Shown here in pieces: positions 18,569 through 20,977 of a DNA stretch of 64,000 nucleotides. Each line of letters starts with the position of its first letter. The first letter of the stretch is position 1. The DNA is taken from the NCBI RefSeq assembly GCF_030028105.1, contig NC_092391.1, forward strand, positions 16,651,223 through 16,715,222, read 5' to 3'. The notes below the pieces were generated by a model, which saw only the letters and a program-made list of their open reading frames with translations, ran no database searches and was not told the DNA's origin. The translations under genes were made by a program, and so were the position numbers. Origin of the DNA: Mobula birostris (lineage: Eukaryota).

Positions 18569-20977
18569 TTAACTTCCATCCATCTTCTCTCTTATTTCTA
18601 AAGGAAGTGACTCAAAAACATACTGTTCTACAATGAGTCCACTAACTTTCAACAAGAGGCACTGTCCTATTTCTGATGGGAGTTTCTCCAAGTGATTTCC
18701 CTGGAGTTCCAACTGAGATAGTTGAGCGAGTCTTGAAATCTTGCCACTGAGGGATGAAATTAAGTTATAACTTAGCTTCAGAGTCATGAGTTTGACACAT
18801 TTGAAGAGCTGATCTGGAAGGACTTCAATTCTGTTGTGACGCAGATCTAAAAAGTACAGATGTTTGAGATTCCCAATATCAGGTGGAATTACAGAAATGT
18901 TGTTGTTTTGTAACTCAAGATAATACAGTTTCTCAATACTGAAAAGGGTTTTTGGCAAGACTTCGATCTGGTTGTTGGACATGTATAGGTACTCAAGCTT
19001 CTTGATTAAATTAATTGTTGGTGGAATCACTTTGATCATATTGAACCAGAACTTCAAACAGTTTAATCTCTCCAGATATTGCAGATGGGTAATGTCTTCA
19101 ATTTTGGTAAGGTTGTTACCTTTGAGGTCCAGGACTTGAAGTTTGGATAAAGTATAAATGGCTGTTGGGATCTTGTCTAGTTCACAGTTGTGAAGTTCAA
19201 TTTGGGTCAGATTGACCATTTTCTTTAAGATACTAAGGCTCAGGAGCTTGGTCTTATCATTGTGAATACAAAGCTTGACCAAGTGGAATGCAACATCAAT
19301 GATGGCGGAGGGCAGCTTGGAGAGACTTGTCTTTAGGTAAAGAACTTTCAAGGAGCGGAGTCCTTTCATTGATTCCAGTTCTACAGCTTTCTTTTCAATA
19401 GCTAGCTTTCCAGTAAGGTACAATTCTTTGAGCTGAATCAGTTTGTAGATCCAGTCAGGTATTTCATCACGATTTACATATTTAACTCCCACTTTTTTGA
19501 GTTGGTTTCTCAACCACATCAAAGCTAATGGTGTAACTTCAGTTACACAGTGTGACAGCCAGATTTCTTCCAGCTGGGTGAGTTGAGTAATTTTGTTGGA
19601 AATTTTAACATTACTACAAAGTTCCAGCTTTAAGACCTGTATCTCAGTAACATCATAGACAGCCTCAGGAATTCCAGAGAGCATGAAAAGGTACAACTCA
19701 AACTGATCTTTCTTAGTTTTAGTTAAATGCTTTTTCACCTTCTCTGCTGTCCAATCGTTATTCAAACTTAAAAATTTTAGCTTTTTCTCACTTACTTCTG
19801 AAAGGAAAACTGCAAGGCGATTGCAAAACAGTGTATCATACTGATCGATTAAATGCATCAAGAAGGCAAAGTCATTTTTTACATCAGGGATATCACTGAA
19901 TTGATTTTCTCGTTTCTCAAACGAATATTGCTTTAGCGGTTTTCTGAAAACCCATATTAATGTGTGGACGCAGAGTATCCAATAGATAACTATTAAACCT
20001 AAGTACAGTAGGGCCATTTTCCCAATGAAACGAGCGGTAGGATAAGTACATCTGAAAGTCTTGTAAAAAACCAATGATAATGCATTAGGCTCACATTTAT
20101 TGTAAAATTCAATAACGTAAATATAGGCTGGAAAGTAACCAATGATAATTAAGCAATATATAGTTTTGACTAAAGTTTGCCCAGCATATAATTTATAAAT
20201 TGTATCTTTTTCTTCAACATGAAGTCTAAATTTCCTGACTTTCTCAAACAAAGCTTTAGCTTGCTCTGCGTCCTTCTTGTCCAGGGATGAATCAGTTTCC
20301 ATTGTGTTCGACTGAATGCCTGTGGGAGCTTTATTGGCTGATGGATCAGTTTTAAGGGTTATCTCTTCAGTATCACTTTCAGAGGCTTTCTGTGTCTCTA
20401 GCTCCAAGACCTTCTCCACTTCACTAGTATCAACAATGATTGCTGTAGATAGGGCTTTGGATGTCCATGGTGATTGCAGACATTTCTGAAGAATGTCAAG
20501 GAATTGTTGCAGTTTGGAGCTTGTTTTGGGATATGTAAAACAGAAATTACTACAGATAATCAGACCAACTGTATGAAATAAAATTATGTAAGAGAAGAAT
20601 CTGGTAAACCAAGGAATTTGACTGTGACATACTTGATTGATGTAGAAATATTGCCAATTGTATAACTGAGTAATCTTTCCTTGACTGATTTCAGGAGTCA
20701 GGGTTGGGCTCATAATTGCCTGTGGATTAGCATTGACGTGAGATATTTCTGAAGTATTTGGCTGGTTTGATTTTAGCTCACCTGCCTTTCCATCAACTTC
20801 ACTGATGTATGGCAAGCATAAAGTATTATCCATGTAAAGCTGTATGCTGCAGCCAAAGATAGACAACAGCAACATAATGATGGCCAGGTAATCCATGCAA
20901 GTATCCCACCAAGGTTTGAAGACCCGGATGGCTGGTGGCTTATTTTCCAAAGTTGAAACATCAGAGACCGAAAACAT
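18569..20977 (-). CDS. LRRC8-family (LRRC8D-like) volume-regulated anion channel subunit, paralog 1, 802 aa, single coding exon
   Basis: Intact ORF with KPWWD, a pannexin-like 4-TM domain, four conserved extracellular Cys, LDKKD.EQAKALFEKVRKFR, DIPDVKNDFAFLMHLIDQYD and a C-terminal LRR domain. Splice acceptor ttctttcAG|GT-ATG. Confidence 0.96.
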   Translation of the reverse strand: MFSVSDVSTLENKPPAIRVFKPWWDTCMDYLAIIMLLLSIFGCSIQLYMDNTLCLPYISEVDGKAGELKSNQPNTSEISHVNANPQAIMSPTLTPEISQGKITQLYNWQYFYINQVCHSQIPWFTRFFSYIILFHTVGLIICSNFCFTYPKTSSKLQQFLDILQKCLQSPWTSKALSTAIIVDTSEVEKVLELETQKASESDTEEITLKTDPSANKAPTGIQSNTMETDSSLDKKDAEQAKALFEKVRKFRLHVEEKDTIYKLYAGQTLVKTIYCLIIIGYFPAYIYVIEFYNKCEPNALSLVFYKTFRCTYPTARFIGKMALLYLGLIVIYWILCVHTLIWVFRKPLKQYSFEKRENQFSDIPDVKNDFAFLMHLIDQYDTLFCNRLAVFLSEVSEKKLKFLSLNNDWTAEKVKKHLTKTKKDQFELYLFMLSGIPEAVYDVTEIQVLKLELCSNVKISNKITQLTQLEEIWLSHCVTEVTPLALMWLRNQLKKVGVKYVNRDEIPDWIYKLIQLKELYLTGKLAIEKKAVELESMKGLRSLKVLYLKTSLSKLPSAIIDVAFHLVKLCIHNDKTKLLSLSILKKMVNLTQIELHNCELDKIPTAIYTLSKLQVLDLKGNNLTKIEDITHLQYLERLNCLKFWFNMIKVIPPTINLIKKLEYLYMSNNQIEVLPKTLFSIEKLYYLELQNNNISVIPPDIGNLKHLYFLDLRHNRIEVLPDQLFKCVKLMTLKLSYNLISSLSGKISRLAQLSQLELQGNHLEKLPSEIGQCLLLKVSGLIVEQYVFESLPLEIREKMDGS

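What the first reader, a model, noticed from the sequence alone, without database searches (positions are those of the whole stretch)
20648..20665. Paralog 1 has a radically altered pore-constriction motif (LYNWQY)
Known: the extracellular constriction is LDRHQY in LRRC8A (R103) and LDFQQY in LRRC8D (F143). Seen: anchored on the downstream QY..INQ.C, paralog 1 reads LYNWQY. Asn107 sits at the R103 site, the conserved Asp becomes Tyr and the next residue becomes Trp. It also changes the conserved SNFWFK to SNFCFT, and the TM1 GTLQ/GTMQ to CSIQ. Inference: a small polar residue flanked by aromatics could give different permeability, for example to neutral or zwitterionic osmolytes.
Basis: partly seen in the sequence, partly recalled or inferred. 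Interest (0 to 1): 0.7.

Follow-up and report, generated by a model that had tools for sequence, protein, structure and literature searches.

The report
Shark-ray channel subunit, aromatic pore mouth
This ray gene is an intact extra member of the cell-swelling (LRRC8/VRAC) channel family, found here only in sharks, rays and a chimaera; its pore mouth carries aromatic residues in place of two conserved polar ones in all 19 species compared (the asparagine between them varies), which likely changes which small solutes the channel lets through.

Summary
The motif is real: LYNWQY at 20665-20648 (minus strand), in an intact 802-aa LRRC8 gene; N107 aligns with LRRC8D F143 / LRRC8A R103 and starts the EL1H helix in a model. 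Asn107 is not the conserved feature. In 19 species the site is N 8, I 8, V 2, Y 1, while the Asp site is always Tyr/His/Phe and Trp108 is invariant. Trp occurs there in 0 of 248 other anchored LRRC8 proteins. SNFCFT is a true clade change; CSIQ is mild. The gene (P1) and its neighbour P2 lie between LRRC8A and a PhyH-family gene and form a sister clade to LRRC8D plus D-like, found only in cartilaginous fish. Best reading (0.5): an accessory subunit that likely gives A-containing channels an uncharged aromatic outer mouth. Assembly and flux are untested. Lead: skate liver VRAC is unusually cation- and choline-permeable. NCBI calls orthologs 'LRRC8D-like'. This scan already noted the same gene pair in other genomes.

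The parts
18569..20977 (-). P1 coding exon: intact 802-aa LRRC8 D-family subunit (Pannexin_like TM domain plus LRRs)
20648..20665 (-). EL1H-tip motif L105-Y106-N107-W108-Q109-Y110 (LRRC8A L101-Y106 register; N107 = R103/F143 site, codon 20659-20657)
20645..20647 (-). F111: third P1-specific aromatic site (F/Y/W/H in 18 of 19 species)
20534..20551 (-). SNFCFT at the end of TM2: family Trp (125 of 128 rows) becomes Cys/Tyr and family Lys/Arg becomes Thr in 16 of 16 P1 rows
   Evidence: K145 contacts the N-terminus in LRRC8A (PMC10480491 passage)
20840..20851 (-). CSIQ in TM1 (T44 site = Ser, mild change); Tyr at the T48 site follows, shared with P2
20954..20962 (-). N-terminal inner-filter sites: Asp6 (Glu in most of the family) and Ser8 (no Arg, as in LRRC8D, which has Ala)
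20980..20981 (-). AG splice acceptor two bases upstream of the ATG; contigs of four runs end at 20978-20982
30483..32975 (-). P2: sister paralog, 830 aa, keeps the D-type motif LDYQQY; a natural control for P1
56703..56954 (-). LRRC8A last coding exon (matched part)
   Evidence: tblastn
62583..64000 (-). LRRC8A main coding exon (starts beyond the window end); motif LDRHQY

Best explanation
P1 is an intact LRRC8D-family gene of cartilaginous fish whose outer pore-mouth helix carries aromatic residues at three positions around an uncharged, variable R103 site, and it likely works as an accessory VRAC subunit with LRRC8A, where it would lower anion selectivity and favour neutral, zwitterionic or cationic organic solutes. 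Shown: intact frame, LRRC8 fold in a model, motif register, conservation pattern, tandem position and phylogeny. Inferred steps: (1) P1 needs LRRC8A to reach the membrane, as B-E do. (2) Its EL1H tip joins the outer constriction ring, putting an uncharged side chain in place of an Arg and an aromatic in place of the acidic D102 lid. (3) With no Arg at the inner filter either (Ser8), A/P1 channels would be D-like or less anion-selective. (4) Most speculative: the aromatic collar (106, 108, 111) would favour methylamines such as TMAO, betaine and choline by cation-pi contact.
For: Site 106 is Y 14, H 4, F 1 and never Asp; Trp108 is 19 of 19; site 111 is aromatic in 18 of 19. Elsewhere: Asp/Glu in 115 of 128 rows, Trp in 0 of 248 anchored proteins. 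Aromatics (F/W/Y/H) in residues 105-112: five in 15 of 16 P1 rows, at most three in 116 of 118 rows outside P1/P2. AF2 TM-domain model pLDDT 79, pTM 0.73, helix starts at N107; its top Foldseek hits are LRRC8 structures. D102 sits like a lid over R103, and D102A lowers flux (10.1101/331207 section 8). F143R in D lowers organic-anion permeability (PMC7229184 passages). Neutralising R8 and R103 raises Na+ preference (PMC10480491 passages). D is needed for uncharged and cationic solutes (PMC6451053 passage). Skate hepatocyte VRAC has Pcation/PCl about 0.2 and Pcholine/PCl 0.55 against 0.02-0.04 elsewhere (PMC6363415 passage). Constraint: 176 of 319 core sites invariant in 16 P1 rows; 19 synonymous, 6 replacement changes and a kept stop among 26 listed codon differences to run X1 (source table showed 40 of 316 rows).
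Against: No functional data exist here, and no side-chain orientation or pore radius could be computed (no coordinates returned). The papers place D102/L101 and H104-Y106 at an inter-subunit cleft (PMC8831520; PMC13596092), so Y106 and W108 may pack between subunits and not line the pore. Swaps at the R103 site often have small effects in heteromers. P1 also changes TM2/IL1 sites (W143, K145, H155 equivalents), which points to gating or assembly. P2 has a similar number of clade-fixed switches (16 against 18), so P1 is not unusually diverged overall. The skate current could come from any of four D-family genes in this genome (D, D-like, P1, P2), all without Arg at both filter sites. Tissue of expression is unknown.
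Confidence: 0.5

Rival explanations
1. The aromatic changes rebuild the subunit interface or the gate, not the filter. Y106/W108 fill the EL1H inter-subunit cleft and, with W143-to-Cys/Tyr, K145-to-Thr and H155-to-Gln, would change partner choice, stoichiometry or the ionic-strength set point, while selectivity stays D-like.
For: The cleft is formed by D102/L101 and lies near H104-Y106. K145 hydrogen-bonds the N-terminal segment tied to ionic-strength activation. The TM2/IL1 switches are fixed in 16 of 16 P1 rows. The residue that faces the axis (107) is the variable one. EL1 affects assembly and gating in chimeras (PMC6028502 passages).
Against: D102 is also described as a lid over the constriction, with a flux phenotype. 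Site 111 swaps freely among aromatics, which is odd for a tightly packed interface (inference).
Confidence: 0.25
2. P1 is a damping or non-conducting subunit: bulky aromatics and loss of the D102 acid narrow or destabilise the mouth, so P1 would reduce VRAC flux where it is expressed.
For: D102A, Q105A and Y106A lower iodide flux in LRRC8A. P1 has lost the Asp in 19 of 19 species.
Against: Q105 is kept in 16 of 16 P1 rows and Y106 in 15 of 16. Bulky residues at the T48 site are tolerated (10.1101/2022.07.31.502239 passage). The rest of the pore domain is strongly conserved.
Confidence: 0.12
3. The changes were fixed without functional effect after duplication and kept for local packing; A/P1 behaves as a redundant A/D channel.
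For: P1 and P2 share a long stem branch (0.40) and carry similar numbers of fixed switches. Site 107 drifts. Accessory subunits are largely redundant in mice.
Against: Non-conservative changes at two family-conserved positions on either side of the constriction have been held since the chimaera split (about 420 Mya per the PMC6238376 abstract). Sister P2 keeps Asp and Gln in 9 of 9 rows.
Confidence: 0.13

Closest known systems
LRRC8D (accessory VRAC subunit; PDB 6m04, A:D heteromers 9dx7, 9t5m)
   Same: Best phmmer hits (E about 1e-238); P1+P2 is sister to D plus D-like (95/99); single coding exon as in this genome's D; no Arg at site 8 or at the R103 site.
   Different: Not the D ortholog: true D lies on C16 at 42-46% identity over the TM domain. 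LDFQQY/LEYQQY becomes L[YHF][NIVY]WQ[YN]; SNFWFK becomes SNF[CY]FT; found only in cartilaginous fish; lies beside LRRC8A.
LRRC8A (SWELL1; PDB 7xzh, 6g8z)
   Same: Same fold (Foldseek E 1.3e-26); direct upstream neighbour on the same strand, with P2 between.
   Different: Lacks R103, R8, D102, H104; separate branch of the tree; LRRC8A has a split coding sequence.
LRRC8C / LRRC8E
   Same: Uncharged aliphatic residue at the R103 site (Leu) resembles the Ile/Val state of 10 of 19 P1 orthologs; Cys at site 43.
   Different: C and E keep Asp and Gln around that site; different clade.
P2 (sister paralog, NCBI 'LRRC8D-like')
   Same: Tandem neighbour, sister clade (100/100), same species range, Tyr at the T48 site.
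   Different: Keeps LD[YFIH]QQ[YF] and SNFWF[KR].

Membership tests
LRRC8 family | Pannexin-like four-TM domain (PF12534) followed by an LRR domain | tested here: met
   PF12534 329 bits over residues 1-340 plus LRR families; four long TM-type helices in the model
LRRC8 family | Conserved extracellular cysteines, KPWWD and the QY..N..C EL1H frame | tested here: met
   C54, C117, C295, C310, P22, W24, L105, Q109, Y110 are among the near-invariant columns of a 144-row alignment
LRRC8 family | Fold matches solved LRRC8 pore domains | tested here: met
   Foldseek: all 30 printed hits are LRRC8; 9dx7_E target TM-score 0.93
LRRC8D orthologs | Groups with vertebrate LRRC8D and lies in the B-C-D tandem cluster | tested here: not met
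   D orthologs form their own clade (100/99) with this genome's C16 gene; P1 lies outside it and on C26
LRRC8D orthologs | Acid-aromatic-Gln outer motif (LDFQQY type) | tested here: not met
   Aromatic-x-Trp in 19 of 19 P1 orthologs
D-family (D, D-like, P1, P2) | One clade against A/B, C/E and the X branch | tested here: met
   95/99 under LG+G4; no mixture model or AU test run; distant outgroup
Accessory VRAC subunit | Assembles with LRRC8A and needs it for surface delivery | not testable with these tools
   Needs co-expression; inferred from B-E
Accessory VRAC subunit | Swelling-activated anion and osmolyte flux | not testable with these tools
   Needs patch clamp and flux assays
Accessory VRAC subunit | Transcribed and spliced | tested here: inconclusive
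   Contigs of four runs guessed to be RNA, from relatives, end at the predicted acceptor; weak hint only, no run on record as RNA

The most novel reading that the evidence does not exclude
P1 turns VRAC into a methylamine-preferring osmolyte channel: an aromatic collar (106/108/111) with no filter arginines selects TMAO, betaine and choline, matching the urea/TMAO physiology of cartilaginous fish and explaining the old observation that skate liver VRAC passes cations and choline far better than other VRACs.
Probability: 0.15. Interest if true: 0.8.

Novelty: new variant of a known kind. Interest (0 to 1): 0.5.

Why it matters
What sets the organic-solute selectivity of LRRC8 channels is still argued from five mammalian subunits that differ mainly at one outer residue. 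P1 is a natural, long-conserved variant that changes the residues on both sides of that site and leaves the site itself free, with sister P2 as a built-in control. It gives a direct test of whether the D102/H104 positions set permeability, assembly or DCPIB binding. It also offers a candidate gene for the unusually cation-permeable skate hepatocyte VRAC, and for methylamine release in animals that hold TMAO and urea (recalled physiology).

Tried and rejected
Sequencing or assembly error: rejected. Pseudogene: rejected; frame open here and in 18 other species' models, mostly synonymous changes. Asn107 as the key residue: rejected. An Asn N-cap replacing the lost Asp: dropped, since 11 of 19 species lack Asn. 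CSIQ as a radical change: rejected. P1 as a copy of neighbouring LRRC8A or as the D ortholog: not supported by the trees (no AU test). Complex prediction LRRC8A TM + P1 TM: no verdict, score 0.02, alignments not used; no evidence either way. First AF2 run on an 11-row alignment was unusable (pLDDT 42). No RNA holder listed for the stretch. Lack of cover upstream of the acceptor in three of four runs is not counted as evidence, and no DNA run was laid across that place. Search for shorter P1 fragments: 0 of 208 candidates scored. Pore-radius profile not possible, no coordinates returned. No structural role for W143 found in print: W143 search gave 2 papers, 1 listed, unrelated; three-letter residue search gave 3 unrelated papers. 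Abascal and Zardoya 2012 is not held. Earlier-findings look-ups by place and by sequence were empty.

Full report
Observation. The finding lies in a minus-strand open frame. The start codon is 20977-20975, two bases behind an AG acceptor, and the frame runs without intron to a stop at 18571-18569, 802 residues. Residues 105-110 read LYNWQY at 20665-20648. phmmer against PDB sequences gives LRRC8D as best hit and aligns this stretch without a gap to human D T135-F143 and on, so N107 equals F143. This genome's LRRC8A shows LDRHQY in the same columns. An AlphaFold2 model of residues 1-410 on a 144-row alignment (pLDDT 79, pTM 0.73) starts a helix at N107, and all 30 printed Foldseek hits are LRRC8 structures. 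The nearest named protein is a Mobula hypostoma 'LRRC8D-like' model at 99% identity, so the window is from a closely related ray.

Searches gave orthologs from 18 other named species, all cartilaginous fish, including Callorhinchus. Over 19 species: site 106 is Y 14, H 4, F 1; site 107 is N 8, I 8, V 2, Y 1; site 108 is W in 19; site 111 is W 8, F 5, Y 4, H 1, Q 1. The fewest changes on a tree built with the motif masked are 3, 5, 0 and 5. Ile appears both in Hypanus and Hemitrygon, close relatives of this ray, and in galeomorph sharks. At DNA level, 4 of 4 laid runs keep the Y106 and W108 codons; three encode Asn and one encodes Ile at 107. Site 107 is among the 9 most variable of 319 core sites in 16 aligned P1 rows, of which 176 are invariant. 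Outside P1, site 106 is Asp 110 and Glu 5 of 128 rows, with Tyr in 2. Trp at 108 was found in 0 of 248 proteins that carried the anchor, out of 352 examined; the other 104 lacked the anchor and three anchored rows were visibly misplaced. So the conserved novelty is aromatic-x-Trp with a further aromatic at 111, and the R103 site is uncharged but free.

The other two motifs. The Trp of SNFWFK is present in 125 of 128 non-P1 rows and is Cys (14) or Tyr (2) in 16 P1 rows; the Lys becomes Thr in 16 of 16. K145 of LRRC8A hydrogen-bonds the N-terminal segment linked to ionic-strength activation (PMC10480491, passage). CSIQ is mild: Cys43 is normal in C and E, and T44S is conservative. As a control, P1 has 18 clade-fixed switches among 154 family-consensus sites and P2 has 16 by a near-identical rule, so P1 is not more diverged overall; what stands out is where two of its switches fall.

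Origin. The genome holds nine LRRC8 genes in two searches (counts are floors): B, C, D and an extra gene X1 on C16; A, P2 and P1 in tandem on C26; a D-like gene and X2 on C37. No clear LRRC8E was seen. A PhyH-family exon lies about 38 kb downstream of P1; human LRRC8A neighbouring PHYHD1 is recalled, not tested. AKAP95-family exons lie beside X1 and X2. Human A, B-C-D and E sit on chromosomes 9, 1 and 19 (PMC12182595, table passage). IQ-TREE on 30 rows (LG+G4, chosen from the 53 rows, which came from a larger alignment with fragments, fusions and some near-duplicates dropped) gives P1 100/100, P2 100/100, P1+P2 100/100, and P1+P2 sister to D plus D-like at 95/99. Inference: a D-type gene beside LRRC8A, probably from early vertebrate genome duplication, duplicated in tandem before the chimaera split. 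No bony-vertebrate ortholog appeared in the best 120 of 1041 hits for P1, the best 120 of 1085 for P2 or the representatives placed in the tree; two high-scoring bony-vertebrate hits, at 1209 and 1386 residues and 38-45% identity, look like fused gene models. Loss in bony vertebrates is likely but was not tested in genomes.

Is it a working gene. The frame is open, and full-length or near full-length models exist in 18 other species. Of 26 listed codon differences to run X1, 19 are synonymous, one keeps the stop and 6 are replacements (from the 40 of 316 rows shown). Contigs from four runs of four studies, guessed to be RNA, end at 20978-20982, at the predicted acceptor. This is a weak hint of splicing; tissue is unknown.

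Mechanism. From papers read as passages or a section: R103 forms the outer constriction, D102 sits above it like a lid and D102A lowers flux (10.1101/331207, section 8). F143 widens the D pore and F143R lowers glutamate and gluconate permeability (PMC7229184). E6/R8 form a second filter, and removing R8 and R103 favours Na+ (PMC10480491). D is needed for uncharged and cationic solutes (PMC6451053). D102/L101 and H104-Y106 border an inter-subunit cleft used by DCPIB analogues (PMC8831520; PMC13596092). Tyr at T48 is tolerated (10.1101/2022.07.31.502239). P1 has Asp6, Ser8 and no Arg at 107, so it is D-like in charge, and it adds three aromatics at the mouth. I therefore favour an accessory subunit giving a less anion-selective, organic-solute-permeable A/P1 channel (0.5). 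Rivals are an interface or gating change (0.25), a redundant D-like subunit (0.13) and a damping subunit (0.12). Aromatic cages binding trimethylammonium groups, and TMAO/urea as elasmobranch osmolytes, are recalled knowledge. A review passage reports that skate hepatocyte VRAC has Cs+ and Na+ permeability about 0.2 and choline 0.55 relative to Cl-, against 0.02-0.04 in most cells (PMC6363415; the 1996 primary paper was not read). P1 is one of four D-family candidates for that current.

Novelty. The family, fold and annotation as 'LRRC8D-like' are known. I found no paper on these paralogs in the held library: LRRC8 + chondrichthyan 0, LRRC8F 0, LRRC8 + elasmobranch 0, LRRC8 + shark + phylogen 9 papers with 5 listed, none on this by title or abstract start. 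In the 20 listed of 755 one paper held LRRC8; its passages shown only compare elephant shark LRRC8A (PMC6028502). The 2012 family survey by Abascal and Zardoya is not held and may mention extra shark genes; no supplements were read. Six unreviewed notes of this scan describe the same gene pair in other genomes. This report adds that the R103-site residue is the variable part, that 106/108/111 are the conserved part, and the link to the skate current. Verdict: real, new variant of a known kind, interest 0.5.

Noticed in passing
G000 C16:19286665 (L017) and C37:21489067 (L016): Two further LRRC8 genes (X1, motif LDREQY with Arg at the filter; X2, LDVQQY) form their own branch with a newt protein (100/100); each lies beside an AKAP95-family gene.
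   Followed up: partly
G000 C37:17731876 (L013): A D-like gene grouping with lungfish and bowfin proteins (96/99), apart from true LRRC8D.
   Followed up: partly
G000, whole genome: No clear LRRC8E gene in two searches; the second used a stricter first look, so absence is not shown.
   Followed up: partly
window 20051-20110 (-), P1 residues 290-309: Seven of the nine most variable core sites of P1 are extracellular (107, 111, 290, 292, 294, 304, 309): relaxed or diversifying selection at the channel's outer face is untested.
   Followed up: no
window 30483-32975 (-): P2 has Arg at the site-111 column in 8 of 9 rows, a positive charge one helical turn below the constriction where P1 has an aromatic; its R103 site also varies (Y, I, F, H).
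   Followed up: no
L012 and chondrichthyan/coelacanth LRRC8D: True LRRC8D has Glu instead of Asp at the D102 site (LEYQQY/LEFQQY) in these groups; a teleost D-like branch has Val there.
   Followed up: no
window 13659-14486, 21711-22400, 34799-37875, 40568-41452, 58588-61984: Fragments that look like LINE retrotransposon endonuclease and reverse-transcriptase frames between and inside the LRRC8 genes (judged by eye).
   Followed up: no
window about 21647-21665: Three tandem TTAGGG telomere-like units next to a repeat fragment.
   Followed up: no
L017:6481-7920: A long tandem repeat giving open frames on the minus strand just after gene X1.
   Followed up: no
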